The translations under genes were made by a program, and so were the position numbers. This document shows, piece by piece, positions 13,740 through 59,800 of a DNA stretch of 64,000 nucleotides. The stretch spans positions 22,382,001 to 22,446,000 of the forward strand of contig NC_059436.1 of the NCBI RefSeq assembly GCF_021028975.2, read 5' to 3'. The stretch is from Sphaerodactylus townsendi. Lineage: Eukaryota. The notes below the pieces were generated by a model. It was not told the origin of the DNA and did no database searches. It saw only the letters and a list, made by a program, of their open reading frames with translations. Position 1 is the first letter of the stretch. Each line of letters begins with the position of its first letter.

Positions 13740-14725
13740 TCAATGTCCTCCTTTCTGTACTATCTGCGCAAAGCGATTGGTGACAGACAGTGTTGCGTCT
13801 ATGAAGCGGTCGACGCAGTTGGCCAGGCAAGTTTCAGTTCTGGAGTCCAGTTTGTTGCCTGTTTTGTCAACACATTTGTCCCAGCAGACTTCCATGAAAT
13901 TGTGGACCTAGAGAAAAATTTCGGGAAAGGGACACAAATATCTTTTGTCAGCAGCATCCTTTTAATAGTAATCAAAATTAGAAGAAAGACTGACAAGCAG
14001 TGTGGTGAGAAGTGGCTGATGTGAGTCTTCTGGGCTGTGGGGCCAGGGTCTTTTGGTTTTAGCTTGTAATGTTTCACCTGCATCTGTGGCTGGCATCTTC
14101 AGAGGCATGTCACGGAGGGTTTCTTCCTGTGGCATATCTTACCATGACGTAGCTCCAAAGATGACAACCACAGATGCGAATGAAACCTCAGGAGTGAAAA
14201 CCACAAGGTCCACGGCCACACAGCCTGGAAAATTCACAACACCCAGTTGATTCTAACCACGAAAGCCTTCGATAATACATCTGTGAGAAGCGTTTGATGC
14301 TGAGCGGTTCCAGAGATGAAGGTTTAGGGACCGACCCCGCTTCGCTTCCCAGTCCAAAGGAGGTAAGGTTCTCCCCCTTCCTCGCCCCCACCCCCCAAAA
14401 CAGTTCCTGTCGTTTCTTCCAGGGTGAGTCCGAGCCGACTTCTTAGGCTGCGATGGGAAGGCCATGAGAGCTAGCAGTTGAAAGAGCGTCGTATCTGGGA
14501 GACCCAGGTTCGAATCCCTGTTCTGCCGGTCGCTGGGTGACCTCAGGCCAATCCCACGCTCTAACCCCGCCCTACCTAACAGGGCTGTTGTGAGGATAAA
14601 GCTTAGGAGACTGAGTGCGGGAAGAGAGCCTGTCGTACCTGGGCGGTGAATCGGGCCCGCTGCTCCTCGGCCGCCACCAGGCGCTGCAGCTCCGCCGCTT
14701 CGGCCTCCCCGCCCGGCTCCGCCAT
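13740..14725 (-). CDS. TIMM8B: Mitochondrial import inner membrane translocase subunit Tim8 B (84 aa), 2 exons
   Basis: Exons 14725-14639 and 13907-13740. MAEPGGEAEAAELQRLVAAEEQRARFTAQ-VHNFMEVCWDKC...ETCLANCVDRFID...VQKGGH*; twin CX3C motif. Minus-strand AATAAA at 13568-13573 and 13265-13270. Confidence 0.97.
14020..14280. mobile_element. Penelope-like pLTR fold-back element (degenerate), TIMM8B intron
   Basis: Inverted arms containing GGCATCTTCAGAGG; end motif GAAAGCCTTCGA.AATACA. Confidence 0.75.
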
Positions 14726-14889
14726 TCCGGGCCTCCACGTCCTTCCTCGGAGCTTCCGGGGACCACGCTGAGGTGTCAAGGCCTTCTCTAGGAACAGACC
14801 GGAAGCACTCGCTGACCCGGTCATGGTTGCTTCCGGGAGGCCGCGTGACCTTGGGAAGATTGCCCCGCCCTTCGGCCCAGAGCGGCAGG
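14726..14889. promoter_or_regulatory. Compact bidirectional promoter TIMM8B/SDHD
   Basis: 164 nt between divergent ATGs. ETS/GABP sites at 14753-14759, 14799-14805 and 14830-14836; ERR-type half-site TGACCTTG at 14846-14853. Confidence 0.85.
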
Positions 14890-17800
14890 ATGGCGGTGGC
14901 GTTGCGGCTGGCGGGGCTGGGGAGACCCGGCAGACGGGGTGAGTGGCGGGGCATTGTGACCCGCATACACCCCTGCAGGGTGGGACGGGGGAGGGTTTAT
15001 GGCAGGTCTGTGACCCTTCTCCTTCCCCTTAGCATCCGAAGAACTCAGAGAGGGTGAAAAGGAGGAGGGGCTGTGAGTCACATACACATGCTTACAACCC
15101 TGCAAGGTGGGACGGGAAGTCATCTTCGCACCGGAGGAGGGTTTATGGCGGGTGTACGACTCCTCTCCTTCCCATTAGCATCAGAAGAACTCCAGGAGAG
15201 GGTGAAAGAGGAGGCGGGGGATTGTGAGTCACATATACCCCTGCCAGGTGGGACACCCTCTGCTGGAGTTCTTCCGATGCTGATGGGAAGGAGAAGAGTC
15301 ACAGACCCGCAATAACACCCCCCCCACACACACACACAGAGATATGTGTTAACTGAGGTTTTCCTGTGTTTATTGAATTATAAGTTGTTTCTAATTCAAA
15401 CCACTTAAACATGGAAGCCTAGGGACTTCTATTTTGTGTTTCCTGTGAGGGGGTCCTAAGATGACGCTGCTGCACACTTTCTCATTCCTGGTGCATATGT
15501 GAGATGGAAGATATTGGGATCCATATCTGGATGATATCTCTATTAGATGAGACTTTACACTTTTTTTGTTCCTTATGGCCTCATGTGTTTGCTTCCAAAG
15601 TCCTATCTGTCAGCTTGATAAGTGGTGGTACTTACTGGCTCATAACTGTGTTGGCTGGAATTGGGAAATCCACGTGGTGCTGTTCTGTGAGTGAAATGCC
15701 TGTGTTCTGTATACAGTTCTCCTGAATAAGACTCTTCTGACCAGATCAGTCATCGCGTGCCCTGCAATTGAGGAACGCTATTCTCTGGCATGCAGAATCC
15801 ACACATCCCCCAGGAGTTTAGGTAAGTGTCTCAGGTTTATCTCATTACCTTCATTTGCACGACTGTACCCATCCGCTGGAGTTGCCAGAATTGTTCCTAC
15901 GTGTGTTGTGTCAGGATCAGTGCAAGATGTCATGGCTGGTTTCTGAACCGCAGTAAGATTGAGAGCAGACTTAATGCTTTTGTTGGTAATGGGTTGTAGC
16001 CTTAGGAACAAGCAGCCTTCCTCCAAAATCTGTTTGTTGGCAGAACATGTCAAACAAAAACACTCCGATCAGATGAAATAAAGCTGTAAGAGCTGTTTCA
16101 ATGTAATATTTTGAGAATATTTGCTTTTTAAAGGCTTTTTCTGTTATTTGTGGAAGACTGCTTGATTTGGTAACGTATTAGTCTTTAGATGTCTTACACT
16201 GTATCAGTCTCTTGGTCCATCCAGGTCAGTATTGTCCACTCAGAATGGCAGCCAGCATGGTGCAATGGTTAAGCGTGGCAGACTCTAATCTAGAGAACCG
16301 GGTTTGATTCCCCACTCCTCCACATGTGTGGCGGACTCTGATCTGGGGAACTGGATTTGTTTCCCTGCTCCTCCACATGAAGCCTGCTGGGTGACCTTGG
16401 GCCAGTTCTCTCCAAACTCTCTCAGCCCCACCTGCCTCACAAGGTGGCTGCTGTGGGGAAGGGAAGGCGAGATTGTAAGTGGCTTTGAGACTCCTTACAG
16501 TTGAAAAGCACGGTATAAATCCAAACGCTTCTTCTCTTCTTCAGCGTCTCTCTAGTCTCATGCTGAGATCTTTCATGCCAGACCTTCTGTCTGCCCATCA
16601 GGTGTTCTACCACTGAGCCACACCCCCTCCCGAATAAAATACTGTCGCCACCCCCATCACAAAGCTAGATTTCTGGTCCTCCTGGATGATTGCAGAGGAA
16701 TGTTTTGAGAACGTATAGCCAGGTGGCATGTTGAAGAAAGAAGGGTGGCTTTGCAAAGTTCCAGTTGATAGCAAGTTCATGTTTCTTGCAGCTCTGTCAT
16801 TGCGACAGTGGCCCACAACCCCATCAAATCTCCACTGGTTCCTTTTTTCTGAATTAATGAAGTTGTGGTCAAGCTCAGGGCACTGAGTGACATTCAAATT
16901 TTGTCTGCTGTATAGAGGGAGCTCCATTTTTCTTGACTTGGAAAAGTAGCAGCGTATGGATGTTTTTATTTTCCATGTGGTGGCCTCCATTGGTGTAGTC
17001 CACAGGAAGTGATGAATCATAACGACCCCAACTGGTTTGGAAAGGGCTTTGCAGTCTGATCTGTTTGTGTTTAAATGCTGTAAAATGCACTGGAGTTGCA
17101 GGAGTTTTGAAGCATCCTTCAGAGATCGCTGGTTTGTTTTGTGCTTTTCTTGGGATTCTCTGGGGTGTCTGCTAAGTAGTCAACCATTTCTCTATTCCTG
17201 GTTCCAGTGGTTGTTTGTCATTGACTCTCACACTCCCCCCCCCCTTCCAAATGCATGTCGTGGCAAAAAGACCTCTGGGTGTCTGGTGATATGTTGGGGC
17301 TCTCCTCCTGAACCGTGTAACTTAGCGCTGCTTAACATTTTTGGATTTGAAAACCGTCTTCTAAATATGTTGGGTTCTACTCCACGTTTTGAAGAAAACA
17401 TTGAATGTGTAGCAATTGGAAAATTTGCCCACAGCACACCTTTGAGCCTTTCCCTTTGTGCATAAATGCTCTGTTCCTCTTCACTGATGAACACCTGCTT
17501 CTAGTTGCTGGCTAAAACCTTGCTGGTGGTGGGGCTGTGAAACTGTAGAGGCTCTGTGCTTATCCTGCAGTGCAAATCCTATTACTTAAATAGGATTGAG
17601 TGAAAATACTCTAAATGTGCAGATTGTGACCGTATGCCTGCTGCAGCCTGGAACTGAGCTGGGGAGTTTTCTGTCATGCCGTGTTTCTTTTCTCCAACGG
17701 GTGTTCTGTGTCTTTAGTTGTGGTGTTTGCCCTCTCCTTGTGTCCTTAGGGATGCGCTCCAGAATGACAGAACCGGGTTCACAACTTCATCCTTGGAAGT

Positions 17801-20800
17801 CTTGCCTTTATTGGTTATGGTGGGTTTTCCGGGCTGTGTGGCCATGGTCTGATAGATCTTGTTCCTAACGTTTTGCCTGCATCTGTGGCTGCCATCTTCA
17901 GAGGTGTATCACTGAGAAAAGTTTGTTTCACACTGTGAATACACCTCTGAAGATGCCAGCCACAGATGCAGACGAAACGTTAGGAACAAGATCTACCAGA
18001 CCACAGCCACACAGCCCGGAAAACCCACCACAACCAGTTAAATCTGGCCGTGAAAGCCTTCAACAATATCTTGCCTTTATGTTTTTTTTTAAAAATGTAA
18101 AGAGAACAGCAACAACAATAAAAAGCATCACTATTTCATAGCTAAGAGCGGTTGTACTTTTTTTAAAAAAGCAAGTTTCTAGTCCTTTGGGCTCTGGACA
18201 TTTGCTTGGGCAAAGACAGGCCTTATTTGTTTATTTATTTATTCATTCAAAGTGTACATCTGGCACCTTTCCACACAACTTAAGGCCACCATGGTGGCAA
18301 ACATCTAACATTCAAACACTTCAAGCGTTTCAAACATTAAACCTTTTGTGTGCAAGAGCTTCAGCGTTCAATGAGTGGCGCTCGTGTGCCCTTTCGGGAC
18401 TTCCCTCCCCTTCCTTCCAAGCTGCAGTCCCAATCCTGTGCCAAGACACCCTCTGCTGCCCCACATTTCCTTCTACCATCATCCTTCTCCGAAAAGAAAA
18501 GGTACGCAAATGTCCACTGTTTGGTTTAGAAAATAATGTCTGGCAATTATTGGTGTTCAAATTTACAAAATGGAATTGACCTCTGTGATTTGGGCATTTA
18601 ATTTAAGGGGCAGGGGTGGGGGGGGAATGATACTTCTTTGTGCCACTGAAGTGCCCATCCAATGTCTGTCCCTCACTACTCATTCACATCTCAATCAGAT
18701 CAGCGGAAATTGCTTCTACCCATCAGTGCTGCATGGGTAGCTGGGTGCCTCCTGTTTGGCACTGGGCACTAATAGAATTATTTCCTGCTCCTTTTTGAGA
18801 CCCATTTATGGTCTAGCAGCTCCCTTACTTTGTAAGTCTGCCTGGCCACTGACCTAAAGGACCCTGGAACTCTCATTATTTGTGTTTAGACATTCACTTG
18901 GGGAGACGTGAAGAATATTTGGTCCTCAATGTGGGAAATACTCTCTGCATTACATGCTGGGAATTCCTGATTGCTGGAGGGACAGAGACTTGATGGTACT
19001 TCTTGGCGGCTTCCCACATTTTCAAATTTGACCCTTTAGCAACACTCAAGAAGCCAAAGCCGGCCATTATTGGAGAGTAACAGCACATTTCTCTTTGTAG
19101 CAGGTTCCAAGGCAGCCTCTCTGCACTGGACAGCCGAGCGAGCGGTCAGCGCCTTCTTGTTCGGGCTTCTCCCTGCAGCCTACCTGTACCCGGGACCTGC
19201 TGTGGACTACTCGCTGGCTGCAGCTCTCACACTCCATGGCCACTGGTAAGCAAAAAAAAACAGTCAGAAAGGGAGGCAGGTCTTCCTGACAGCGAAGGCC
19301 TGTTGCTAGGGAGTTCATTGTTGGTTAATGTCTTTAAAAAACCCAAAACTATTTAATAGCAATGTTTTACAGGAAAAAGGAGGTAGAACTTAATATCTTG
19401 GGTGCTGTGTGGTTTCCGGGCTGTATGGCTGTGTTCTAGCAGCATTCTCTCCTGACGTTTCGCCTGCATCTGTGGCTGGCATCTTCAGAGGAGAAGATGC
19501 CAGCCACACGAACATCTGGCCAGCTGAAGAATGCTAGAATTACAACCACACAGCACCCAAGTGATTCCGGCTGTGAAAGCCTTCGACAATACATAGAACT
19601 TAATATCGCCAGAAGAATCCTGAATAAATAATGACCAAGACAAAACAAACAAAAAGGGAGCTGGCTAATAGAATTACTGTTAAACAGTAATTGATTTATA
19701 CCAATAAGAATATTTTTTTAATCCTCTCCAGCTTTTTGTGCTTGTACCCTGGAAATCTTGTTTGTCTCCAAGGTGTTTCTGGCCTCAAATCCAGCTGTTC
19801 CAACACAGCTACCCTCTGAAACGATCTTCTTAAAAGGATAATTCTCTTTTCTGGGTTGATGCTTTAGTTTGACACTAGGGAGCAGTGTGGAACTTAATGA
19901 AAACCCATTTGGTCCTTAAGTGTTTTAGTGTTTTAATACATTTGCGTGCCCTCAAGGCAGATAGCAATCAAACTTAACAGTATAACATACCAGAGTGGAA
20001 AATATCATAGATCTGCAGTAAAATAAAACTAATTATGACCATCCTAAGAACAGAGCAATGAAAAAATAATGGCACTTTGCAGGCAGGCAAAACCAGGCTG
20101 CAGAACAGCAGAGATTGAGTATCCCCCACAGAGGAGGTGGGGTGCCATCACCAAAAAGGCTATTTCCCTCATAACCATCTGCCTCATTTCAGACAGTGTA
20201 CAGGGGCCTGTGCCTTCTGGGTAGAATCAGGGGAATTTTATTTATTGTGTTGATAGTTTGATGCTCAGCTCAGGGCAGCTTACAACAGAAATTCACAATT
20301 AAGATGAACTATCAGTTCCCACAGTATATTGTTCAGTGGTGCCATAAAATCAATTCCTAATTAAGGGGGAGTGAATTAAAGGAAATAGGAAAAACACAGA
20401 AAGGGAAAGGACGAGACGAAAAGAGGAGAAGGAAAGAGGGGAAGGGGAAAGGAAAAGGGAAGGGAAGTAGGAGGAGGCCATGGTTGAAGGCAGCCATAGA
20501 TCTTTCAAGCCAGGGACCACCTGAAAGTTGTTACCCATGGGGCAAGGTGCTCTCCTGGGGATGTATTTGGAGAGGCAGTCCTGTCAGTAAAAGGGCTCCA
20601 GTCTGTTCCAGATTTTGAAGTTAGCATTCCTTGAAGTGTCCTGGCCCCAGATTATCTACAGCTTTATAAGTCAAAGCCAACATTGGGCCTGGAATCCAGC
20701 AGATAGCTTGTGTTGGACTTCTGCTTCGGGACTGGTGCTCCTGTCTGGACCCTACAAATTTGTGTGGGAAAAGATGTCCGCAGCCATCTGAACTGAGGGA

Positions 20801-23800: not shown

Positions 23801-25904
23801 CAACGGGTGAATCATGACCCTAGGAGGGTTTACTCAGAAGCAAGCCCCATTGCCAGCAACTGAGCTTACTCCCAGGTAAAGGATCGCGCTGTAGTTCTTC
23901 GCATGAAAATCAGTGGGGTTTAACAGCGTTTAACAGGGTTACCTACACTGCTTCCCCAAAACTAGGTCTTAGGTTTAATGCCCAGCGACCCAGGCCAGCC
24001 TAGATGTGTGTGGGTGGGGGGACTCCAATTGTGCGTGCCCACAGAGAGGGCTCTGAGTGCCACCTCTGGCACCCGTCCCATAGGTTCGCCACCACTTCTG
24101 TATAACAACCTCATCAATATTGATAAGTCTTTCCTATAAGGTATTTTCCCATATGTAGAATTACTGACACCCCCTGATAAATACCTGTCTTTTACTGTAG
24201 AAGACCATCTGCAGTTTTCCCAGGGAAAGTTTCACTCAGCTGCGCAACGTGTCTTTTATCAAGGTTAAAGACACTGGCCAGCATTTCTGAATAACAAACA
24301 ATTGAGAGAATGTCTTGTTTTCATGAAGACACTCAGCTACTGTTCTCATCAGAACTAGGCATCATTCAGCATCGCTTAGACTAGGGGTGGCCAACCTATG
24401 GTGCTCCAGAAGTTCATGGACTACAATTCCCATCAGCCCCTGCCCTATATCTTTTCCAAACCCCATTCAATACTTAGATTCTGTATGAATGAATCACTCT
24501 AAGATTTATTGTACTAATTTTTATTCTTCTTCTGAGATTCAATAAAACTTCTCTTTACTGTCAAAATAGTTTTCATTATTTTAGACTCCTATAGATGTTT
24601 AGACTCCTATAGAAGGATCCTCGTAAACGGTGGTGGAGAAATATTGCTGCTCCCCACCTCTTGCATGAGTTAAATTTCCCCAGAATTATTTACTTGGTTG
24701 CAGACCACTAATTTGGGTAGCAGAGTCTGTCATACGCTTCCAACTTCAGCTACCTTGCAGGGTTGTTGTAAGGATAAAACAGAGAAGGAAGATGGTGCAT
24801 ACTTTCCTGAGCCCCTGGGAGGGTGGGCAGGATAAAACTGTGTGCTGGAGGGAGAGGGAATTGGCAGCTTGTGGCAATGTGAGAAATCCAGTGTGTTGTA
24901 ATGGTTAGGATGTTGAACTAGAATCAAGGAGACTCATGTTCAACCCCTGCTCTACCAAGGAAGCTGACTGGGTGTCCCCAGTTCAGATATGCTGCCTAGC
25001 CTACATCACAGGGCTGTTGTGAGGATAAAATGGGGCAGAAGAGATGAATGAAAGCCACTCTGGGTCCTCATTGGAGCGAAAGGTGGCAAACAAATGAAGT
25101 AAATAAATAAATTGTGTGTTGTCGAAGGCTTTCACTGCCGAACTCAACTGGTTGTGGTGGGTTTTCTGGGCTGTGTGGCCGTGGTCTGGTAGATCTTGTT
25201 CCTAACGTTTCGCCTGCATCATCTGCCAGCCACAGGCGCAGGCAAAACATTAGGAATAAGATCTACCAGACCACGGCCACACAGCCCGGAAAGCCCACCA
25301 CAACCAAATAAACTGTGCTTGGCAACATCTGAATATTCGGCACCTTCCCCAAGCCGCTGTGTGCATGCATTCCTGCTGCATCCGTGAGAGCCCCGGGCGC
25401 TCTCATCCTTTTTTCTTCCTCTGGGGATAAGATCTACCCCTTTAAGGAAAATTTCCTGGGTTGAAGTTTATCCCCCGGGGGAACCTTAGCACACTTCTGA
25501 CAGCTTCCCCAGAGAACAATCATGGTTCTGAATGTAGAAAAGGAACAGGATTCTTCTCTGTAAGCAGTCTACACCTTCTTCAGCCACGCGGAAGTCATAA
25601 AAGGTTGATGTTTGATCAGTCCAGAGTTCCTATGGAAACTGTCCTTGAGAAGTTTAGGAGGACGGGTGGGGCTGATCTGGAGGGTATTTGTAGTTTGTCT
25701 TTTTCAACCTGCTGCTTCTCTTCCTGTCCCCACTGCAGGGGCCTCGGCCAGGTCGTGACTGACTACGTCCACGGAGAGACGTCCTTCAAACTGGCCAGTG
25801 CTGGGCTCTATCTGCTCTCCGCTGCCACCTTTGCTGGCCTCTGCTACTTCAACTACCACGATGTGGGCATCTGCAAGGCCGTGGCCATGGTGTGGAGACT
25901 CTGA
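14890..25904 (+). CDS. SDHD: Succinate dehydrogenase cytochrome b small subunit (154 aa), 4 exons
   Basis: Exons 14890-14938, 15717-15821, 19101-19245, 25739-25904 (465 nt). [13 protein letters not shown]...[26 protein letters not shown]...[24 protein letters not shown] at 26336-26341. Confidence 0.96.
16250..16545 (+). mobile_element. tRNA-derived SINE (Squam3-like)
   Basis: Head, body and CTT tail. Confidence 0.8.
17811..18068. mobile_element. Penelope-like pLTR fold-back element with hammerhead core
   Basis: Inverted arms; plus-strand CTGAAGA (17947-17953)...GAAAC GTT (17974-17981). Confidence 0.82.
19398..19593. mobile_element. Penelope-like pLTR fold-back element with hammerhead core
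   Basis: 14-bp TSD TAGAACTTAATATC (19384-19397 / 19594-19607); intact minus-strand core at 19488-19454. Confidence 0.85.
23604..24097. mobile_element. ~500-bp non-autonomous hAT transposon
   Basis: TIR ~CAGTGRTGGCGAACC; 8-bp TSD CTATATAA / CTGTATAA. Confidence 0.85.
25113..25306. mobile_element. Penelope-like pLTR fold-back element (core deleted at the fold)
   Basis: Inverted arms, same subfamily as 17811-18068, opposite orientation. Confidence 0.8.
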
Positions 25905-26472
25905 GATGCGACGCCCGCTGCCGGCAAAAGACCACGATTGTCCACCGCTGCCTCGGCTGTGTCGTTTTATCACCAGGTCATTGAATAAGGGAAAGATGAT
26001 TCCAAAGCTTCTAGCTTTACAAACAAGAATGCTTTGGAGAGAGAGGCTTCCAGATGTGGATTAACAGCTGGAGCTGCTCCCCATAAAAGTGGGGAAGGGT
26101 GCGCTGCTGGCATTGGGGTGGTAAAGCCAACAGTTCCGCCTCTCCACAGCTCATCTTTCCCTGTGCAATGGCAACCTGATTTTGATCTTTTTGGTCTCAT
26201 ACTTTGGTTCTCAAGTTGTAATTAGTCAATTGTGTACACGGCATGATGCCCTGGGTTCAGACGCTGGCCCTAAACAATCGCTGTGCAAAAGGGAAGCCTT
26301 TTTGATTGCTTGTTCATTTGTTTCAAACTGTATACAATAAAGAGTTTACACAACAGCACCCCGAAGTGTTTGTTTCAGAAATATATTTTGAACCTCCTTA
26401 GCTTTTTGTCATAAAGCCTATTCTCTTCCAAAAGAGCCAGTGTGCTATAGCAAATAGAGTGTTGGTCTGTAA

Positions 26473-26759
26473 GAGAGCCAGCGTGGTGTAGTGGTTAAGA
26501 GCAGGTGGATTCTAATCTGAAGAACCGGGTTTGATTCCCCACTCCTCCACCTGAGTGGCAGAGGCTTATCTGGTGAACCAGATGTGTTTCCGCACTCCTG
26601 CATTCCTGCTGGGTGACCTTGGGCTAGTCACAGTTCTTCGGAACTCTCTCAGCCCCTGTTGTGGTGTCTGTTGTGGGGAGAGGAAGGGAAAGGAGCTTGT
26701 CAGCCCCTTTGAGTCTCCTTACAAGAGAGAAAGGTGGGGTATAAACCCAAACTCTTCTT
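26473..26759 (+). mobile_element. tRNA-derived SINE (Squam3-like), young, inserted into an older SINE
   Basis: Near-identical to 55896-56240; older SINE halves flank it at ~26433-26470 and 26760-26900. Confidence 0.85.
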
Positions 26760-29176: not shown

Positions 29177-29410
29177 GAGCCAGTGTGGTGTAGTGGTTAA
29201 GAGCAGGTGCACTCTAATCTAGGGAACCAGGTTTGATTCCCTGCTCTGCCACTTGAGCTGTGGAGGCTTACCTGGTGAATCAGATTAGCTTGTGCACTCC
29301 AACACATGCCAGGTTGTAAGGGGGGAACGGAAAGGAGATTGTAAGCCCCTCTGAGTCTCCCACAGGAGAGAAAGGGGGGATATAAATCCAAAACTCTTCG
29401 TTTTCTTCTC
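29177..29410 (+). mobile_element. tRNA-derived SINE (Squam3-like) with internal deletion
   Basis: Head and tail match the family. Confidence 0.8.
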
Positions 29411-29938
29411 TGTTTTTTTTCTTGTGGTTTTTTCCTTATTTGCATAACAGTAATGTGGTTCAGAATTGTGGCTTTTCAGCAATAAGACATTTTTCTCACA
29501 TGCTGCCCTAACTCAGGTTGTGCTAGTGGCATCACTGCCTTGTTTGCATTTGTTAAAGAAGGACAGAGGAACAGAAGGACTGAGAAAAACCAGGGAGTTT
29601 CGGAGGCAATACCGGTAACAAAAAATGAACAGGTAAAGGTTCAAGGTCGCTGCTTTTGTCTTTTCTCTGTTGCAGAACACACTTGACACAAACCACGCCT
29701 CTTTTTCCTTCTCATTCAGCAAGTCTTTATTGGCATATAGACCAAGCCCCTTTTGCCATTTTTAATCAATCTTTTTTAAAAAAATCTCAATCTATCAGAT
29801 AAATGGAGATACCTTATTAGTTTTGTGCAGTTTTGTGCAGATTTTGCAGATTTTAATTTGCCTGTTAATGACACATTTCCCTCCACAGAGACACAGACCT
29901 AAGTGCAACAAGCCGTTTCTTGGCCTTGGTGAACAGTG

Positions 29939-32900: not shown

Positions 32901-35900
32901 CTTCTCCAGCTATCAGGTTCTAGACCTTTGAAACAGGTATATGAAGTAGTGCATTAGAAAGAGGGTTGATAGACAGGGCTCTTAAACTGTTCTTCCAGAA
33001 AATAATAATGCATTCCCCCACCCAACAGCCCAGGGATTACGAATTCATTCAGAAGTGACCACTATGAAGCATGATAACATCCTGGCCCTTGAATTTCAGT
33101 ACAAGTTGAAGAATCAACTTTTTTTTCATGCTGGTGCACTCTTTAATTAATCATGGAAGTTCTGTGTAGCCTACTTTTGATGTTTACAATCTCTCTTGTG
33201 GAATTTGGGCTAGCTATTGTTAGAGTACCTCCATGCAAAATTGGATCTGAACTGAAATTATTCTCACTTTTCCACTTTTGTTTTCATATATCTTTTTCCT
33301 TTGACAATCTGTCTCTGTTGTCCCGTGTGACTATATTTATGTTTGGTGACATCACGATGTCCATGAGCAGCAGCATGACACCCCCATGCCTACTGCATGG
33401 AATTCAACTGAATGGGCTGTCTCATATGGCCTTATTTGATGAAGTAGCAGCTGAATACACAGCAGGAAGGACATGGTGCAAGATACGTAAAAACTGATTG
33501 GGGTGCTGCGTGGTTTCCGGACTGTATGGCTGTGTTCTAGCAGCATTCTCTCCTGACGTTTCGCCTGCATCTGTGGCTGGCATCTTCAGAGGATCTGATA
33601 GTAGGAATGGAAAGCAAGTGGAGTATATATACTGTGGAGCTGATTAGTCACTGTCTTGATTCTAGAGTTTTTCACACAAACACAGGACAGCTATAGACAA
33701 TAGCAATCAAAGGGAACAAAGACCAGGATACTTCTATTCATTGCATTCACCTATTGACCTTGCTATCTTCATTGTTACTCACATGCTACAGACTTCTTTG
33801 TGACTCACATGCCAGGCTACTCTATTCAGATGGCCTCACCTTTTGGCCTCACAGTATATATACTCCACTTGCTTTCCATTCCTACTATCAGATCCTCTGA
33901 AGATGCCAGCCACAGATGCAGGCGAAACATCAGGAGAGAATGCTGCTAGAACACGGCCATACAGCCCGGAAACCACACAGCACCCAAGTGATTCCGGCCG
34001 TGAAAGCCTTCGACAATACAGTAAAACTGATTTTTCACAAAATTGGATTATTGCTCACCGTCATCATCTTTGTTAGGTCCCAGGTAATGGAAAGATGAGA
34101 AGAGGAAAGAGAAAGAGGTTAGAATGCATCCAGATCAAATACTATCTCCACTGCGTTCTGATCAACATCCCTCCAGCCCACACCATCACTGGCTTATTTA
34201 GGAATAAGCTGAAAGCTCACGACATGGGAATTGCACTTCCAACAGAAAGTGGCTGCTTCCTTAATGGATCTGCTTTCACTTTAAAAAGCCAAATAAAAAC
34301 AGTCTGCCGTCTTTTTTCAGTCTTCCAGATCGGAAGCCAACTGGCCAGGGCTACCTCTTCATTCCGCACTGCTCTGAGGTTGCCGCTCCTCCAGCCAGTT
34401 CATTGAGCCAGACGGTGGATCTTTCTAGCCCAGATACTTTTTTAAAAAATTAATAAAATAATATTGAAAAAAGTAGATCTGCCACTCAGTGGGGCTGATT
34501 TGCAGTGTGCAGACGCAGAAGCACAAGAAAGCAAAGTTGTTCTCTAATGGCTCAGGTACTAAGACCAGCAGCCTCAATTTGTCTGGCTGTGTTTCTAACC
34601 TGTATTGCCTTTCAGTTTTCCATGAGTGCCAGCGGGCACCATAAACCAGTTCCAAAAATTACCCCATCCTTTCATGCTTTCTCTGGGGCTGCAGGCCATA
34701 ATTCAGCACACAATTGCATGTGCTTAAATCAGGTGATTTCTTTAATTTCAGGCATTGACTTGGCTTGCAGCAGCCAGGACAGAGCTTAAAAAACACTTTT
34801 CAAATGAATTGGTCCCAGGCTTAATTTTAGGGTGGAGCTCCATCAGATTTTTAGGTGCTGGATTTGCTTAGGGCTACATAAAATGTTTGAATTCCTAAGC
34901 ACTAACATAAAATATCTAGGGACCAAGTTGGGCTATGTGCCCGGGCACTGTTCCAGCCCATTGTGCTGAGAGAGTGCCCGGTGCCAAGGGAGTGGCAGTG
35001 GCTGAATGGAGCCAAAATACCAGTGCATGGCCTGAATCATGAAACACAACACTAGTCCAAATCAGTTCGACGAGGGGTACCTTGAAAACAGAGTGTCCCA
35101 TCATCTTCAAAATACAGTGGAAACATGCGAATTGGGGCACCATTCTTCTTTGCTCTGTAACAAGGGAAATGAAAAGAATAGTTAGGACAAGGTAACAGCA
35201 TTGTATGCCCGACAGGACACTTATCTGCTCCATGATCAGGTACTTGATAGATAGTATGGGAATAGAATTTTTTTCAGGTGCCCTCTTGCCCTAAGCCACA
35301 AATGCATAGCATGGCAAGCCTTTATTGGCATAGACAACAGTACAACAATAATAAAAAAAGGATTAAAAAGCAGATACAATACAGGAAATAAATGTTAGGT
35401 CGAAGGAAATCTACTGGTGTTTAGTAATTTCCAGGAGAAAGTCTGCCACTATCATACAGAGAGAAGGATCCAACAAATAGTGTAATCTAATTAAATCGGG
35501 GAGATGGGCTAAATGTAAAGGAGTAAGATTCACATACTTGGATCTGATTCCCTTGAATCTGAGACAGTGTAGTAATTGGTGGGCCAGAGATTCAACTGAG
35601 CCATCGTTACATGGGGACAATCTTTTAGCCTTTTCTTGCTTATTAAATCTGCCATGTAACAAGGCAGAAGGCATAACATTAAACCAGGCGAGCATTATGG
35701 CTCTCCTTTGAACAGGGTTTATTAAGCAATACAGGTAGTGTGCCAAGTGGCCCCGTTCAAATGGGAGAGAAAAATACAGGGGGGAGCACGTTTTCTTGGC
35801 TGCAGTGATTAGGGTAGAGAACTCTCTATCCAATAGTTGACCTTTTAATTTCCTATAAGCGTCTGAATAGGACAAAGGGCAAAGTGAATTCACTGACAGT

Positions 35901-41292: not shown

Positions 41293-41539
41293 TATAACGT
41301 TGTAACGACGTCAAAGGGGAACTGTGGCACCCGCTCTTCCTCCCTCCCCCAGCCCAAAAAGGCCTGCCAAAACCACGCCCGCCCGTCCGCCCGCCCAGGG
41401 ATGCCCTCCGCTCTTGCCAAGCCAAGACTCCTCGGGCTGGCAGGGGGACCCCTAGGCTACCCCCTCCTCCCCGGGCTCGGTCAAGCGCTCGGCCGGGGCA
41501 AAGCAGACTGGAGATCCGGAGCACAACTTTGAGCAGGTA

Positions 41540-42523: not shown

Positions 42524-42727
42524 GTGGGGTGTTGTGGAGTTTCCGGGCTGTATGGCCATTTTCCAGTAGCATTTTCTCCTGACGTTTCACCTGCATCTGT
42601 AGCTGGCAGATGCCAACCACGGATGCAGGCAAAACGTCAGAAGAAAATGCTACTGGAGCATGGCCATACAGCCCAGAAACCCCACAACACCCCAGTGATT
42701 CCGGCCATGAAAACCTTCAACAATACA
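42524..42727. mobile_element. Penelope-like pLTR fold-back element (core deleted at the fold)
   Basis: Inverted arms plus the GAAA.CCTTC.ACAATACA end. Confidence 0.8.
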
Positions 42728-47612: not shown

Positions 47613-50600
47613 ATGCTTTCCTACATTACTTCGTTCACCAGCCTCCTAGCTAAGAATGTGGCTGATCTCTTTTGGTTTTTGCTCCAGTACATCCCAGGTA
47701 AGAGCCCCCCCCCCGGTCAGTCTCCTTTAAAGGTATTTTGCTGAACCGAGTGCTTTTAAAAAGTACCCGAGATTGGGTGGACTGACTGCATGGGTCTCTC
47801 TTGTGCTGTAAAGACTGCCCAGAAGAGAAGCATTTGATTTGGGTTTAATAACCTGAATATTTTTGAACCCCCACCTCTGCAAAGCCCATACGCAGTATCC
47901 ACTGGCACTTTATTTGCAAACTGGGCAAGAACAGATGGCTTGAGCAATATTTATTTTTCTTTGCATTGTTCTGTTTGATATTGGTGGTTTTGTTTCTTTT
48001 GAGAAGGAGAACTGGCCGAGTTATTCTGCATGTTGATTTTTGTGTGGAAAAAATTAATTCATTTAAGAGCTCCTCAGAGTCATACTGGACCCAGCGTTAT
48101 TGCTGTTGAAGCAAGTTAACGCAATTGAGCCAAAGGCTTTCTTTCCGTTTAGCCCAGTTCAAAAAATAACCCTTAATCTTGATACATCTGATCTGCCACC
48201 TGGATACGTGCCACAATAACATTGAGATTAGATTACTGTAGCGTACTCGACAGAGGTCTTTCGTCAAAGTCCACTTAGAGACTTCAGTTGGTATAGAATA
48301 TTGCAGCCTGGTTATTACTAGGAGTCAGGCGGGGCATGCATATTACTTCAATTCTGCTGTCACTCCATTGGCTGCCCGTTGTGTTGGCTATGACGTATAA
48401 AATCCTTCAAGGCCTTGGACTTTCATATGTACAAGATCGCCCTCCCCACATGTGCTGCCGTGACAGCTTTGCTCATCTGGTGCTAACTTGCAAAGGGGCA
48501 AAGTCAACAACTGCCCGTACGCATGCCTTCTTGGTTGTGGCCTTATGGAACAGCCTGCCTGACGAAGTCAGGAAGGCTCACATTCTTGGCTTTCCTCAAA
48601 TTATGTAAAATAAACACATTTTTTTGTATCACAGATGGAAAAATGTCTCAATGTCCATTTAAAATTCATAAAGGGATGTACAAATTCTCGGATGTTCATG
48701 GATAATTCACACGCATTGCAGTGTCCACATCTGAAATGGCCATTAGCTTGACTATATCATTATCATTTTGTGATAGCTCAGACTTTTATTCTTGCTTGGG
48801 TTTTCTGCACGGCCCATTTATGACGGCCTGGGGGCGCCAAAAAAGGCGCCCCCAGGCCGCCGTTCGCACAGGCGCCGCTGCTGCAATGCAGCAGCGGCGA
48901 CCTGACTCTTCTTCCCTCCCCCCAGGGCGGCGTCAAGCCGCCCTAAACAACAACCCTTTAAAGGGGTTGTTGTTGGGGAGGCGTCTTCCCTGCGGCGCTG
49001 CGCGAACCGCGCCGCCGGGAAGACGCTGTCTCCCGTCTCCGCCCCACTCACGGTGTCCTCCTCGTCGCCTGCGGGGCGTCGCAGCCCCGCCCACACTGTC
49101 CTCCGACCTCCAGGGGTCGGAGGGCAGCGTGGGCGGGGCTGCAACGCCCCGCAGGCGACGAGGAGGACACCATGAGTGGGGCGGGGGAGGGCGCAGAGGC
49201 GGCTCCGTGCGGAGCCGTCTGCCGTCTGCCGGCCTTCCCTTCGCCTGCTCGCACGCTTGCGTGCGAGCAGGCTCCCGCCCCCACGCCGGCAGAACTCCTG
49301 TCGGCGTGGGGGCGCCTCCTGGCCGTGCAGAAACTGCAACCCAAAGCCCATTGATTTATCGCAAAGTGCCAACACAGCAATTTAACCTGAATACTGAGGT
49401 TTTAGTATAGAAAAAACGGTTGGCTCCAAGATGCACGTCACTCGGGAGTAAGCTTGGTGGCTTTGCTTTGAAGCAACTGTGCAATGCTTCGAACGGGTGA
49501 ATCACGACCCTAGGAGGGTTTACTCAGAAGCAAAACCCATTGCCAGCAACCGAGCTTACTCCCAGGTAAAGGATCGCGCTTTCGTTCTTCCCATGAAAAT
49601 CAATAGGGTTTAACAGCACTTAACAGGGTTACCTACACTGCTTTTCCAAAACTAGGTCTTAGGTTTAATGCTAATAATCTCCCTGAAATATATTGTCGAA
49701 GGCTTTCACAGCCGGAATCACTTGGGTGCTGTGTGGTTTCCGGGCTGTATGGCCGTGTTCTAGCAGCATTCTCTCCTGACGTTTCGCCTGCATCTGTGGC
49801 TGGCATCTTCAGAGGATCTTCTCTGAAGATCCTCTGAAGATGCCAGCCACAGATGCAGGCGAAACGTCAGGAGAGAATGCTCCCTGAAATAATTACAGTA
49901 TTATCACATGACGAATTCTGTGCACGCGTGCCCATAAAGAGGGCTCTGAGTGCCACCTCTGGCACCCATGCCATAGGTTCGCCACCACTGTCCTAGGCAT
50001 AGTGTTTGGAGTTGTTATTTACTTGGTGTTGCACACTATACCTGTTGAGTTTCTGTTTAATAATTGCTGAATAATTGCTCAATTGTTGCTGTGACTATAT
50101 GGGACATTTTGCATTTAGCTTTGGGCTCTTAGTTTTTATACAACTGGCCTGCAAAGCAAGAAGCCAAAACAAGAACTTTAAAAACACAGAACCCTGAGAA
50201 GTGCTATCTCTGTATTTGCACTGCTTGGTTTTTATGTGTGTCATCTACTTTTTAAGCAGGACAATGGGGATAAATTTTTGAATGTAATTTGTCCTTGATA
50301 AAAACTTTCCATGAGATAATTGGAGCTTTCTAGCTTTTAAGTGAAAACTCAGTATTTGGCTTTAAAAGCTGTGTAACAAATAAAACCAACAAGGGAAGTT
50401 TTTCTCAACATGCAAGGACATTGATGTGAATAGCAGTAATTATTGATCGCTGTCATTATCTATTGATTAAAGAAGTGGCAACTGTGGTAAAGTTCTGAAC
50501 AAAAACTTCCGCAGGGGGATGATCCCTTGTTGTGGGTTCATTGTTAGTATAAAGGCAGAGCTATGGTTCTCTGTTCTTGGTTCCCTTCCCCTCGCGCCTG

Positions 50601-53600: not shown

Positions 53601-53756
53601 GAGCGACTGCGCATCCGCATTATGAACCAGATGGGACAGCCTACAACATGGGCAATTCATATGGGAAACATGGTGAGGCCAGTAAATTTAGAGATGGGGT
53701 CTAGTTTAGTTACTTTATGCTTGCCTGGGATTTTTTTTGTCTGTTTGTAGGCAGAG

Positions 53757-53820
<64 letters not shown>

Positions 53821-56800
53821 GTCAGTCAGTCAGTCAGTCAGTCAATCAATCAATAATTTATTGTGGTCATAGATCAGGAGGGTCAAACTTCTTTAATTTG
53901 TTCTTTAGTAGGTATTTATTTCTGCGATTGTGCTAATAAAATGTTTGGAAGTAAATAATTGGACGCATGTTCTGAATAGAAGCTGAAGTATTCTAGTGTC
54001 AGAATAGTGCCTTACAGAGTTCCTTTACATCCCCTGTGTGTGAACATGTGAACCCACAAGTCACCTTCTACTGAACCATACCATCGATCCTTCTGTCTTT
54101 GTGATAACAGCTGTTCCTTATATCAGAGATCCTTATTAAAATGTTGGGGGTGGGACATGGGAAATATTGCTTACAAAGCAAAACTCTCTTTAGCCCTCCT
54201 TTTCTTAGGATGTGTTCATATTTTTCACATGGGACAAAGGGACAAAGAATAAAATGTGAATAACTGGAGTGGGAACCCTCATGTAGAAACTGGGGCAGGT
54301 AAGGGAGGTATCTTTTTAGACAGGAAGTTTTGGAGTGTTCAGTGAATCTGGCAGTGATGAGAGCTTTCCAGTCTCCAACCGTGGCCTGCGAGTAGCAGCA
54401 AACTCACTGCCATTCCCCAGCAGTTCCCTGAATGTGCTGACTTTTCACTATTTCTGCTCCCACCCCGTGCCCTTCAGCCCTTGTTTTTGGGTCACATGAA
54501 TTTTAAAGTGGTTTGGTTATTCGCAACATAGAAACATTGGGGGAAAACCTAAGAGAATGGAGAAGTTTGTTTGAAAAAGACTAAAATGTATCATGGTCTC
54601 CTTTTTACTATCTGCCGGCCAGGCTACATTCTGCTTTTGCTGTTTCATGATTATTCAGAATGTTCCCACACAGATATTTTCTAGGAAATAAGTCCTATTT
54701 TGAGTGTATTTGATTTCCAGGCAAGGATGTTCAGCTGGCATCGATGCGCACAGCTGCAGGGAGCCAGAGAAGACTGCGCAGCTCAATTGTTTGAGTTCCT
54801 GCAAGTCAGTCTGCAAAGGCCCCAATCCTCCTGTAGCTGTTGCCAGAATCGTACCTAACTGATATGCTTTCTCCCATCCAGGTTCAAACTATAACATAAT
54901 TCAGATTCCCCCGCAGAAGTCTAGCCCCGAAGACGCCAATCTGCAGGGGGCAAAAATTCTGTGCACCATTCAGCCAGAAAACAAGATGAAGCCCTCCTAT
55001 TACCACAGTTTTGGTAAGGGTGTCCCTCCTTTGAACTGAAACCTTGCCCCTTCCGCAGAATTGCCAGAGATAAAGGCCATGGAAGTTTACGATAGCAAGA
55101 ATGGGAACTCTCTGCTTCCCAACTGAGGCCCTCAGAAACCAGGTGAACAGGCTGGAATATCACAGGCGGGGCTATCTGGGCTCTTTGAACTGTGAAAATA
55201 AAAGCTGTGAGAACATGGCCAGTATATGGGATTCAGTGCTCCAAGATGCAGCAACAAGTGTAAGCATTATAAGCATGCATTGTTTGGAAAAGGATTCGGG
55301 AAATTCATGGAGGATCGGTCTATGAACATCTAGATTCCGCATGCAAAGACACAACATAGTAACCTAGAATATCAGTTCCTGTGCACATACAGTGGCCTTC
55401 GCCTGCACGCCTTGTTTATGGGCCTTCAAGCAGAAACAACTGTGGAGTCAATGGATCTTTGGTTGGGATTACTGGGATGATTCCTAGATAAAGGGACATG
55501 AATATATTAAGTGCCATTAAGTCACTCCCAACCTAAGGCAACCTTAGGAATCTATGTTTTCCTATTGTTAACAGCCTTTCTCAGGTCTTGCAAACTGGGG
55601 GCCATAGCTTTCTTTATAAGAGACGATCCATCTTATATTGCATCTTCCTCTTTTCCTGCTGCCTTCAAACTTTCCTAGCATTATTGTCTTTTCCAGTGAA
55701 TCTTCTTATTATTATGTGACCAAAGTACAACATTTTAGCTTCTAAGGACAGTTCAGGCTTGAATTGATTTGGTCTAGAATCCACTTATTTGGTTTTTTTG
55801 GTGGTCCATAGTATCTGTAAAACTATTGTATAGTGAGACATAATTCCCACATGAATACTGAAAGGTTCTGCAGAAATGTTGGGATTCATGCTCTGAGAGC
55901 CAGCGTGGTGTAGTGGTTAAGAGCAGGTGGATTCTAATCTGGAGAACCGGGTTTGATTCCCCACTCCTCCACCTGAGTGGCAGAGGCTTATCTGGTGAAC
56001 CAGATGTGTTTCCGCACTCCTACATTCCTGCTGGGTGACCTTGGGCTGGTCACAGTTCTTTGGGACTCTCTCGGCCCCACCTACCTCCCAAGGTGTCTGT
56101 TGTGGGGAGAGGAAGGGAAAGGAGCTTGTAAGCCACCTTGAGTCTCCTTACTTGAGAAAAAGGTGGGGTATAAATCCAAACTACTACTCCTCTTCCTCCT
56201 CTTCCTCCTCTCCTCCTCCTCCTCCTCCTCCTTCTTCTTCTAAATTTACTTTATTCTAAGCATTCTATGAAGGCTGTTGGATCATTTGAAGGTTTTTTGG
56301 CAAGATTGGTTATGCCTGTAGGAGGAAATGTAGCAATGTATTGTCCAAGGAGCACAATTAAGTAGTTGTGACGGAAGGGAAGGCAGTGAGGTTCAGGAGT
56401 GTGGCTAGGACAGAGCTTGCCTGAGCAGTGACATCTTTTGCTTCCAGGAATGAGTGAAAACTTCGTGATCTTCATTGAGCAGCCTGTCAAAATCAACCTG
56501 TGGAAGCTCATCGCAGCCAGGAGTCTTGGGAGGTCGTTTTTGGATGCAGTCAGCTGGGAGCCTCAGCACAATACCCGCTTCCATGTCGTGGAGAAGCTCA
56601 CGGGGGAGGTAGATCTTGAATGCCAGGGCTGAGTCTGTCATTGCTAGGACCTGGAGGAAGGGGGGCAGGGGAGCAGGCACTCATCTGAATTTCCAGGGAA
56701 CCTCATGAGAGCTCAGGAGCCAGAGGTGTGGTCACAGATATAGACAGGTGACAGGTAGGACAGAGAGAAGCCAGCTCCAGCTTATTCTGGGCCAGATCTG

Positions 56801-59800
56801 TCCATAGTTTGGCAGGTTGTCCAGACTGGAGTAGCAGCCTCCAAGCTAGAATCTTATAAAACCTGAGGTATCCTGGTTCAGTCAAGTCATGTCTGAAGTG
56901 GAGATCGAAGCTGACACGTGGGGGTGGTTTCTGCACTAGGTGGTTCTAGTAATTGCCTTGGGTACCAGAATGCGGCAGGTACTGGAACACCAAAGCTCTC
57001 TAGTGCCTCAGTCCCAGCTCCCCCACCCAGCTTACCAGGCTGGTGAACATCTCAGAGCTTGTTGAAGGCTTTCACAGCTGGATTCAACTGGTTGTGGGTT
57101 TTCCAAGCTGTGTGGCCGTGGTCTGGTAAATCTTGTTCCTAATGTTTCGCCTGCATCTGTGGCCAGCAAGATGCCAGCCACAGATGCAGACAAAACATTA
57201 GGAACAAGATCTACCAGACCACGGCCACACAGCTCCAAAACCCCACAACAACCATCTTAGGGCTTGCCCATCCAGACTGCCTGGGCAGCCCAAGGCATCA
57301 GATGTGTCTGCCTAGCCATCTGATGGGCAGCTTTGGTGCACATACTTGCCAGCAGAGGGTTTGGGGTATGCCTGGGCCAGTCAGCAGGGGGTGAGGCACC
57401 TGGACCTGCTGGCCTTGGGCTTTATCAGCTCTTGAGTTGCTCCTGGCCATATACGGTAGCTTTGTTGGGGTGCTCACGCTCCAGGTCCTCTCTGCATTTT
57501 ATGCAACCACTGGCTTTGTGGTACACATTTTAAGGTGCTGGGGCTTGGCAAGTTGAATGATCTATTAGATTCTGGGCCTAAGGTTGCCAATCTCCAGGTG
57601 ATGGCTGGAGATCTCCAGGGATGACAGCTGATCTCCAGGCGAGGTTGCTCAGTTCGCCAGGAGAATATGGCTGCTTCAGAAAGTGGATCCTATGGCATTA
57701 TATCCCATTGAAGTCCCTCAGGCTACACCCCTAAAATCTCCAACTATTTCCTGATCCAGAGCTGGCAACCCCAACCGGGCTTCTTGGCTTCTTTGAGATC
57801 TAGGATTTCCCTGTTGTGGAATCAATTTGCCCAGTCCAGACTACCAAGTAATTTATTTGGCTACTGAAGTGGTGTTGCTTAACAGCCTTGGCTGTTGTAT
57901 AACACTGGGCTGTAGACTTTCAGGCTGTTCCCACATATAGAATTTTTTTCAGGCAACATTATGCTATTTCCAGATTTTGAGAAGGGATGCTCACGCGGCG
58001 GCATTGAGGGCTGAGATTCACAGAGAAGAAATGGCTTGCATGTCTTGTGTGTTCTTTGCACAGGTCTTGGCCACACAGTACTATACCAAACCCCTCCTAT
58101 CTTTCCATCAAATCAATGCCTTCGAAGATCAAGGCTGCATTGTCCTTGATCTCTGTTGTCAAGGTGATGGGGGAGCCATGGACATCTACCGACTACACAA
58201 CCTCCGCAAGACAGGAGAAGCCCTGGACCAGGTAAAACTCTGAGGACCCTCTTGAATGCAAGTCTTCGTTAAAGGTCACAGAACTTCATTAATCTACTTA
58301 TATTCCAGCCAATTTTATGCATCAGTGGAGTTGCCAACTTCCAGGTGGGGCCTGGAGATCTCCTGATCTCCGGATCAGACCGTTGGACCTGGAGAACCAA
58401 GATCAGTTCCTCTGAAGAAAATGGCTGCTTTGGAAGGTGGAGTCTATGGCATTGTACCTTGCTGAGGTCCCTCCCCAGGCTCCACCCCCAAAATCTCCAG
58501 GAACTTCCTAACCTAGAGGTGGCAACCCTAGTCAGTTTTCATACACAGACTCAGAGCCGCCTTGGTCATGGCACCAAATCTCTGGAACTCCCCAAAGTGA
58601 TTCCTTTGTCCCCTTCTGTTGCCATCTTCCTCCAGGGAATTAAGACTTTTTTTGTTTTGTTTGACACCTCCTGAATGATCCCACCTTCCTAACCAGGGTC
58701 TTGTATGTTTTTAAACTCTGTTTTGTATGTATTTTAATCTCTGTTTTTTAACTCTGCTTTAAAATCGTTTCTATGTTGTGTGTTTGGAAGAGGGGTTGAT
58801 TTTAATGGTTTTAAAACGTGATATTTTATCATGCACATTTTAAATTGTTAGCCACCTTGGTGGGATTTCTAAGGCCAGAAACATGGGGTAAAAATTATAA
58901 TTTTAAAAATGTACAGAGGCAAAGGACTTTAAGCTGACTTGGGGGAAAAGATCACTAGTTTAGCATTTTTCAAAAAAACCCACCCAGGTTGAGCTGAAAC
59001 ATCCTGAGGATGTTTTGGGGGGAAAAGCTGTACGGAGTTCTTCCCCAAATGCTTTTCAAAACATCCTCAAGTTGTTGTATTTGTGTTGTGCAGCAAGCAC
59101 CAGAGTCCCTCACTCTCTTTTGCTGCATCTTTTCTGTCTCCTTGGCAGGCCTATAACTCAGTAGCTCGGCCGTTACCCTGTCGCTTTGTTCTTCCCATCC
59201 ATGTGGATCCCAATAGCTCCACTGGAAAGAATCTCCACCCCTTATCTTACACATCAGCAAGAGCTGTGAAAGAGGCTGATGGAAAGGTACGCACAGACTA
59301 TGTGCTCCATTTGGGGTTTCTGGAGCGGGGCTGGGTTTTTTGCCTGATATTTCTAAAGGTGAATGTAAAGGTAGAAGAAGAGTTTGGAGATTAGAGCGCA
59401 CCTGCTCTTAACCGCTACACCACGCTGGCTCCCAGCTTGTGATCATCCACACTTGCAAAATGAACAGACTGGCGTAAATGCTGTCATTCTTGCTCAGAAC
59501 CTGAGACCCTGCTGGGATTTTATTGGGTGAGTGGGGTTTTGCGTTATGAATAGGTTTGCTTTCAAAAAGAACCTTGCAAAACTAAGAATGTGGAATGGGA
59601 TTATATTGCCTTAGCAGGAAGAAACGTTGGGTATGCAAATTTAGACCCACCTCTAAGATTGCTCAGCAGCTTTAATCTTCCTCATTCAATGCAAATAACA
59701 AATACCTGCTTTACATAAGATGCTATTGAAGTCATCTTCAGGAGATGACAACATGTCGATTCCTTTTCCAGATCTGGTGTACCTATGAAAGTCTACATGA

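What the first reader, a model, noticed from the sequence alone, without database searches (positions are those of the whole stretch)
14020..57252. Dispersed family of fold-back retroelements carrying minimal hammerhead ribozymes (at least 8 copies in 64 kb)
Seen: copies at 14020, 17811, 19398, 25113, 33500, 42524, 49691 and 57061. Each is an inverted pair of one ~100-140-nt unit with a single unique end (GAAAGCCTTCGACAATACA); several have 12-14-bp TSDs. The unit reads CCT-CTGAAGA-T-GCCAGCcacagatGCAGGC-GAAAC-GT(C/T)-AGG: a hammerhead core, stem II with an A-A mismatch, a short stem I and a loopless palindromic stem III. Two subfamilies differ in cleavage triplet (GUC vs GUU) and downstream sequence. 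Known: Penelope-like elements carry such minimal hammerheads in their pLTRs, proposed to cleave as dimers, and often insert as inverted pLTRs. Inference: a non-coding ribozyme-bearing family, active recently in this lineage, places self-cleaving motifs and long dsRNA stems in host introns whichever strand is transcribed. In 3 copies the catalytic CTGAAGA is lost exactly at the fold junction.
Basis: partly seen in the sequence, partly recalled or inferred. Interest (0 to 1): 0.72.

Follow-up and report, generated by a model that had tools for sequence, protein, structure and literature searches.

The report
Back-to-back stubs of lizard Penelope retrotransposon
These mirror-image repeats are short, back-to-back stubs of a Penelope-type jumping gene closely related to a well-studied lizard element; their ends suggest that both cut DNA strands likely primed a copy of the same RNA, and the ribozyme motif they carry is predicted to be locked up by its own mirror copy.

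Summary
All 8 copies are real. They are not a separate non-coding family. Each is a head-to-head pair of 5'-truncated copies of a Poseidon-type Penelope-like element (PLE). An 819-aa RT + GIY-YIG frame in this genome starts inside the hammerhead and is 85% identical to an Anolis protein, so the 'unit' is coding sequence. Inverted ends, tail and minimal hammerhead are published PLE traits. The copy population adds mechanism clues. 74 of 78 classifiable pairs join one arm ending near +85 to one ending near +118 (39 expected), the two copying start sites reported in vitro. Inner ends pile up at TATA/initiator-like sites that differ between subfamilies (-12 versus -44), and 1,152 junctions are loop-free palindromes. 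Best reading (inferred): both nicked strands prime on one RNA, run off its 5' end, and are joined by microhomology. Only 5 of 16 window arms keep the catalytic core, and folding predicts the mirror arm sequesters it, so host-intron cleavage is unlikely. The scan noted similar elements and this reading before on other DNA (120 notes, at least 29 genomes).

The parts
14013..14280 (.). Oldest head-to-head pair (arms 68% alike), 8-bp TSD; in the single intron of a Tim10/DDP-family gene (TIMM8B-like, name recalled) on the - strand; stem III broken
17812..18068 (.). GUU-subfamily pair, arms -42..+85 and -19..+117 from the ATG, 12-bp TSD; intron of the CybS (SDHD-like) gene; + arm keeps the core but has a stem II mismatch
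19397..19593 (.). GUC-subfamily pair, 14-bp TSD; intact core on - strand (ATG 19482), right arm rearranged; SDHD-like intron between exons at 19112-19249 and 25737-25898
25113..25306 (.). GUU-subfamily pair, both arms lack CTGAAGA (+13 and +2); same SDHD-like intron
33500..34020 (.). GUC-subfamily pair with 10-bp TSD; left arm -53..+83 with intact core, right arm reaches -237 into the parent's 3' UTR and ends at +118; host gene not identified
33903..34020 (+). First 39 codons of the PLE ORF (ATG at the start of stem II), ending at the outer copying start site (+118)
42527..42727 (.). GUC sub-lineage pair, both arms lack CTGAAGA (+2 and -2); no TSD found
49689..49881 (.). Young GUC pair (98-100% to parent), both cores intact, both inner ends at -13 with a short templated spacer, right arm ends at +42, 12-bp TSD; probably first intron of an RPE65-family (BCO2-like) gene
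57059..57254 (.). GUU-subfamily pair, both arms lack CTGAAGA (+7 and -3); intron of the RPE65-family gene between exons at 56447-56605 and 58082-58219

Best explanation
These elements are head-to-head pairs of 5'-truncated copies of an autonomous Poseidon-clade Penelope-like retrotransposon, likely built anew at each insertion when the two staggered nicks in the target each prime a copy of the same RNA. Shown: the parent ORF, the two outer end positions (about +85 and +118 from the ATG), their one-of-each pairing, TSDs, the inner-end pile-ups and the junction sequences. Inferred: one nick starts at +118 and the other at +85; most cDNAs use the 5' copy of the start sites and run off the RNA's 5' end at the element's own promoter (about -12 to -17 in the GUC subfamily, -44 to -47 in the GUU subfamily); the two cDNA 3' ends are joined through palindromic microhomology or short templated patches; fill-in makes the 10-14-bp TSD. 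The hammerhead is a passenger in these stubs, and in read-through RNA it would pair with its mirror arm and not fold.
For: Parent: 819-aa open frame with RVT_1 (E 1e-12) and a GIY-YIG-like C-terminus (Atlas score 0.96, family on 20-28% of members), starting at stem II; 690/816 identical to an Anolis carolinensis protein. Outer ends: two peaks among 307 arms, matching the PAc start sites (111-118 nt into the ORF, and a second site one 'tail' upstream; PMC11167929). Pairing: 74 long/short of 78 classifiable pairs versus 39 expected, p=5e-18. Separate templating: the tail-less arm reaches at least 15 nt further 5' in 25 of 74 pairs, by more than 1.1 kb in L057 with an intact 12-bp TSD; single arms ending near +85 with a TSD exist (8 of 44 short solos). 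Same source: arms share minority variants above all 500 permutations in both subfamilies. Inner ends: 73 of 160 GUC arms at -17..-11, but 2 of 91 GUU arms there and 23 of 91 at -47..-40. Exact probes fall from 23,308 to 6,532 across the GUC site and from 4,602 to 1,365 across the GUU site. TATA-like boxes lie 26-30 nt upstream of initiator-like motifs at both sites. Junctions: 1,152 loop-free palindromes and 1,294 with 0-30-nt spacers, often locally templated. PAc cleaves and extends both strands in vitro (PMC11167929).
Against: No RNA 5' ends were mapped; the promoter is read from motifs and truncation points. Shared variants fit fold-back equally well, and show one source, not one molecule. 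One-sided deletion after insertion could also make asymmetric palindromes, and deletion between the two GATC copies could make loop-free ones. The tailed arm is the longer in 12 of 74 pairs and 37 are about equal. 105 of 307 arms are unpaired, and most of these have no detectable TSD. Probe counts depend on sub-lineage conservation. Frangieh et al. saw no difference in start site between the two strands in vitro. Most sampled loci were centred on an intact core or an RT match, so they lean to young copies.
Confidence: 0.6

Rival explanations
1. Fold-back: one cDNA (or an antisense RNA, as Arkhipova 2013 proposed) self-primes and copies itself; the endonuclease then trims the second arm at +85.
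For: Palindromic junctions; arms share variants; proposed in PMC3846280 (passages) and, for the tail, PMC8557442 (passages).
Against: A copy-back arm cannot hold sequence that its template lacks, yet the tail-less arm is the longer in 25 of 74 pairs. Loop-free junctions are the hardest for a hairpin (1,152). Solo arms end at +85. PAc initiates at both sites on sense RNA (PMC11167929).
Confidence: 0.2
2. Two separate RNAs, one per subunit of an asymmetric protein dimer, each fixed to one start site.
For: Gives the one-of-each pairing; PAc is predicted to be a dimer (PMC11167929). A single dominant source locus per cell would also give shared variants.
Against: No clear GUC/GUU hybrid among 101 pairs (3 mixed labels: 2 arms too short to type, 1 old diverged copy). 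Sub-lineage sites are concordant within elements (for example column 46: 9 both-minor, 2 discordant of 45).
Confidence: 0.15
3. One reading: a non-autonomous fold-back family that spreads as a unit and cleaves host transcripts.
For: High copy number, one junction repeated 1,152 times, at least 5 of 8 window copies intronic, and a tandem retrozyme-like array exists elsewhere (L035).
Against: All 8 window junctions differ. Lengths grade into ORF-bearing copies. Cores are often lost or predicted to be sequestered. The unit is coding.
Confidence: 0.05

Closest known systems
PAc / Poseidon_Ac of Anolis carolinensis (PMC11167929)
   Same: ORF starts at stem II; cut site 26 nt after the start codon; ends at the two RT start sites; about 99 of the first 118 ORF bases agree with the paper's printed template (counted by eye); 85% protein identity to an Anolis protein whose N-terminus matches that template.
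   Different: Another host genome, two or more subfamilies (RT-EN 75% alike), an A-A mismatch in stem II where PAc has wobble pairs. The text read does not treat inverted insertions, end pairing or the transcript start.
Inverted-pLTR insertions with a one-sided 30-40-bp tail in endonuclease-positive PLEs (PMC3846280, PMC8557442)
   Same: Head-to-head arms, tail on one arm only, TSDs, pLTR that includes the first codons and a TATA/Inr-like promoter, palindromic junctions.
   Different: Here most insertions are promoter-to-start-site stubs of about 200-270 bp, in tens of thousands of copies. Those papers suggest antisense self-priming or endonuclease resolution, not paired priming.
Minimal hammerheads of metazoan PLEs (PMC4209133)
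   Same: No loop 3, palindromic stem III, extra base between positions 9 and 10.1, short stem I; dual motifs 100-700 bp apart on opposite strands were already noted.
   Different: Cleavage was not tested here; the stubs hold opposite-strand copies that cannot form the tandem dimer in cis.
Non-LTR retrozymes (bioRxiv 10.64898/2026.07.22.740005)
   Same: PLE-derived, non-coding in practice, hammerhead-bearing.
   Different: Retrozymes are head-to-tail tandems; the window copies are head-to-head and each has its own junction.

Membership tests
Penelope/Poseidon EN+ PLE | Single ORF with RT and C-terminal GIY-YIG endonuclease | tested here: met
   819-aa frame; RVT_1 hit; GVYRIPC..YIG motif and Atlas GIY-YIG clusters at 0.96. 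Pfam GIY-YIG itself did not hit at E 0.1.
Penelope/Poseidon EN+ PLE | pLTR overlapping the ORF start, direct or inverted, with a 30-40-nt tail on one end | tested here: met
   The same unit lies at the ORF start (L058) and after the 3' UTR (L061, L064); tail about 33 nt.
Penelope/Poseidon EN+ PLE | [quoted passage not shown] | tested here: met
   By inspection, no Cys between residue 604 and the GIY motif.
Penelope/Poseidon EN+ PLE | Phylogenetic placement in the clade | not tested
   No tree built; 85% identity to the Anolis protein stands in for it.
Penelope/Poseidon EN+ PLE | An intact pLTR-ORF-pLTR source copy | tested here: inconclusive
   L058 has the whole ORF but its 3' end stops in the UTR; 150 of 6,364 candidates were scored.
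Minimal type I hammerhead ribozyme | Conserved core CUGANGA / GAAA / NUH with palindromic stem III | tested here: met
   Intact in 149 of 220 motif-bearing arms (found by a motif search, so biased to intact) and 5 of 16 window arms. Rfam gave no hammerhead hit at E 1.
Minimal type I hammerhead ribozyme | Self-cleavage after NUH (as a dimer or with protein) | not testable with these tools
   Shown for PAc only with its protein (PMC11167929).
Non-LTR retrozyme | Head-to-tail tandem units, each with a hammerhead | tested here: not met
   All 8 window copies are head-to-head.
MITE / fold-back DNA transposon | Fixed terminal inverted repeats, uniform internal structure, DNA-transposase parent | tested here: not met
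   Ends are unequal (+85/+118), junctions vary, TSD length varies, and the parent is an RT element.

The most novel reading that the evidence does not exclude
PLEs integrate by coordinated twin priming: a protein dimer on one RNA assigns one target nick to the +118 start site and the other to +85, both cDNAs run off the promoter-defined 5' end, and host microhomology joining seals them head to head. That would explain the inverted pLTR and the one-sided tail in one step, and the stubs would map each subfamily's transcription start. With a parent 85% identical to the Anolis protein, the existing PAc assay could test this directly.
Probability: 0.5. Interest if true: 0.62.

Novelty: new member of a known kind. 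Interest (0 to 1): 0.4.

Why it matters
The family and its architecture are known, so the elements themselves are ordinary. How PLEs make inverted insertions is described as undefined (PMC8557442). This genome holds tens of thousands of stubs of a near relative of the only PLE with an in vitro system, and their end pairing gives a sharp, testable prediction. For the host, the stubs would seed many introns with 100-nt RNA duplexes (possible editing or silencing substrates, untested), not with active ribozymes.

Tried and rejected
DNA search of the own genome with one arm returned nothing because common words are skipped; patterns were used instead. Rfam gave only sub-threshold miRNA hairpin hits and no hammerhead. 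Splice-acceptor reading of the inner pile-up: rejected, since no shared upstream exon appears, ends spread over -17..-11, and a common GUU variant has no AG there. RT stalling at the hammerhead: rejected, since the GUU subfamily has the same core but stops at -44. Ends at the ribozyme cut: 7 of 251 inner ends at +27..+32 and 1 outer end; inspection left this inconclusive. Loop II pseudoknot (lead from e1-9296904): a complementary 6-mer lies upstream in GUU copies, is absent in GUC copies and shows no covariation; unproven. RNA evidence: no RNA holder listed, and the four runs laid were contigs, which cannot show starts. Genome-wide count of head-to-tail tandems was not obtained. Host genes around 33500 and 42527 were not identified (86 of 104 long frames scanned). 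Orientation bias in introns could not be tested without annotation. The Lunse 2017 paper on dimer cleavage was not held (recalled only). Literature searches for a twin-priming model of PLE inversion or a link of truncation to the transcript start listed none, but subscription papers are not covered and I read only listings for most hits.

Full report
Observation. Self-BLAST and direct reading confirm 8 inverted pairs at the stated places. Aligned in one orientation, 15 of the 16 arms follow the start of one open reading frame (the rearranged right arm of 19398 was left out). TSDs of 8-14 bp flank 5 of 8 copies. The window is C12:22,382,001-22,446,000 of a 1.81-Gb genome. The 34-nt core has 14,622 exact matches and the reversed control 0. 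26 blind 10-kb tiles (4 next to the window) held 15 elements, which scales to roughly 10^5 genome-wide; this is a rough figure.

Parent. One of the first 30 loci held an RT fragment upstream of the unit (L004). A search with it gave 152 matches from 150 of 6,364 candidates scored, many 96-98% identical. L058 carries an 819-aa open frame whose ATG lies at the start of hammerhead stem II. It hits RVT_1, and its C-terminus resembles GIY-YIG clusters; Pfam's GIY-YIG model did not hit. The best relative is an Anolis carolinensis protein, 690 of 816 residues identical. Its N-terminus matches, by eye, the PAc template printed in PMC11167929, and about 99 of the first 118 ORF bases agree. The GUU subfamily has its own ORF-bearing copies, 75% identical over 659 residues. 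So the unit is coding sequence of a Poseidon-type PLE, repeated after the 3' UTR as the pLTR.

What is known. PMC11167929 (parts 1-2 of 4 read, plus passages; supplements 1-2 as extracted text only, the GenBank file and figures unseen) shows that PAc nicks and extends both strands, starts copying at two internal sites that bound the 'tail', and that its ribozyme cleaves only with protein and is not needed for insertion in vitro. PMC3846280 and PMC8557442 (passages) describe inverted pLTRs, the one-sided tail, TSDs and TATA/Inr motifs, and leave the mechanism open; the former favours self-priming on antisense RNA. PMC4209133 (parts 1-2 of 4) defines the minimal hammerhead and notes opposite-strand pairs. 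bioRxiv 10.64898/2026.07.22.740005 (part 1 of 5 and passages) covers tandem retrozymes.

Population analysis. From 149 loci (1.1 Mb) plus the window, BLAST gave 330 arms, 307 after removing duplicates, forming 101 head-to-head pairs and 105 solos. Most loci were centred on an intact core or an RT match, so the sample leans to young copies; a few segmental duplicates remain. Outer ends peak near +85 and +118. In the 78 pairs with both ends classifiable (23 set aside), 74 are one of each, 2 long/long and 2 short/short; 39 mixed pairs are expected by chance. The tail-less arm reaches further 5' in 25 of the 74, the tailed arm in 12, and 37 are within 14 nt. TSDs of 9 bp or more flank 50 of 101 pairs (3 of 600 in shuffles), mostly 10-14 bp and 68% A+T against 52% background. 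Arms of one element share minority variants more than permuted arms (0.016 versus a null maximum of 0.010 in 58 GUC pairs; 0.026 versus 0.023 in 29 GUU pairs). Rare variants are mostly unshared (8 versus 150; 5 versus 140), which argues against much later conversion.

Inner ends. Leaving out the 32 RT-selected loci and the tandem array, 73 of 160 GUC arms end at -17..-11, while GUU arms peak at -47..-40 (23 of 91; 28 more at -39..-18; 2 at -17..-11). Genome-wide exact probes drop 72% across the GUC site (23,308 to 6,532) and then to 824 in the endonuclease region about 300 nt further up; they drop 70% within 12 nt at the GUU site (4,602 to 1,365). Both sites sit in initiator-like motifs 26-30 nt below a TATA-like box (consensus motifs recalled). 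I read them as transcript starts; no RNA data test this. Junctions are loop-free palindromes at GATC in 1,152 places, or carry 0-30-nt spacers, often copied from adjacent sequence, in 1,294 places.

Mechanism. The staggered nicks each prime a minus-strand cDNA, one at +118 and one at +85, likely on one RNA. Priming at the 5' copy of the start sites gives about 100-130 nt of cDNA before the RNA ends, hence the stubs; priming at the 3' copy gives kb-long arms. The two 3' ends are joined by microhomology or patching. Simple fold-back cannot give a tail-less arm longer than its template and struggles with loop-free centres, though later deletions could mimic both. Confidence is 0.6 for this mechanism and above 0.95 for the PLE identity.

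Ribozyme and host. The core is intact in 5 of 16 window arms. With the partner arm present, stem II has predicted probability 0.00 in all 5; for the arm alone it is 0.65-0.94 in 3 and under 0.04 in 2. Whole elements fold at -90 to -335 kcal/mol on either strand. Five copies lie between identified exons of Tim10/DDP-, CybS- and RPE65-family genes (gene names TIMM8B, SDHD, BCO2 recalled), a sixth probably, and two are unplaced. Long duplexes in introns are plausible; self-cleavage there is not.

Verdict. A real, very abundant, known kind of element: a new member of the Poseidon PLEs. The scan's earlier notes describe the same kind of stub and a twin-priming reading in other genomes. My reading was recorded before that look-up, and those notes are not counted as support. 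The value here is the quantified end pairing and two-subfamily promoter signal in a close PAc relative. Interest 0.4.

Noticed in passing
L035 1502-2996 (G000:C1:4701000-4704500): Head-to-tail array of GUU-type hammerhead units (12 BLAST hits, 100-130 nt apart, most starting at -24): retrozyme-like, and able in principle to form the tandem dimer.
   Followed up: no
L058 3799-6255: After Anolis proteins (85%), the named next relatives of the ORF are insect PLEs (56-57%; unnamed ones to 63%); the one named fish hit among 120 listed is 39%. Possible old horizontal transfer, or thin vertebrate coverage; no tree built.
   Followed up: no
GUU-subfamily arms, -21..-16 (e.g. L064): A 6-mer complementary to loop II, which can alternatively pair with the inferred 5' end of the transcript; absent in the GUC subfamily, no covariation.
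   Followed up: partly
runs X1, X2, X19, X23 on L049:2300-2832: Related units occur in four other coded organisms' contigs, with opposite-strand joints near the same inner site in X19 and X23.
   Followed up: partly
window 14013-14117 (-); L059, L081: A third, older subfamily with a different linker upstream of the core.
   Followed up: no
window 5495-5603, 15136-15323, 38300-38768, 49039-49184, 61958-62134: Other palindromic elements unrelated to this family.
   Followed up: no
window 8960-9259, 16250-16542, 26473-26759, 39783-40083, 55895-56198: A second dispersed repeat of about 300 bp, 72-91% alike between copies.
   Followed up: no
window 2460-63784: Exons of PIH1-, NKAP-, Tim10/DDP-, CybS-, RPE65- and PTPS-family genes in the order recalled for the vertebrate PIH1D2-NKAPD1-TIMM8B-SDHD-BCO2-PTS block.
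   Followed up: partly
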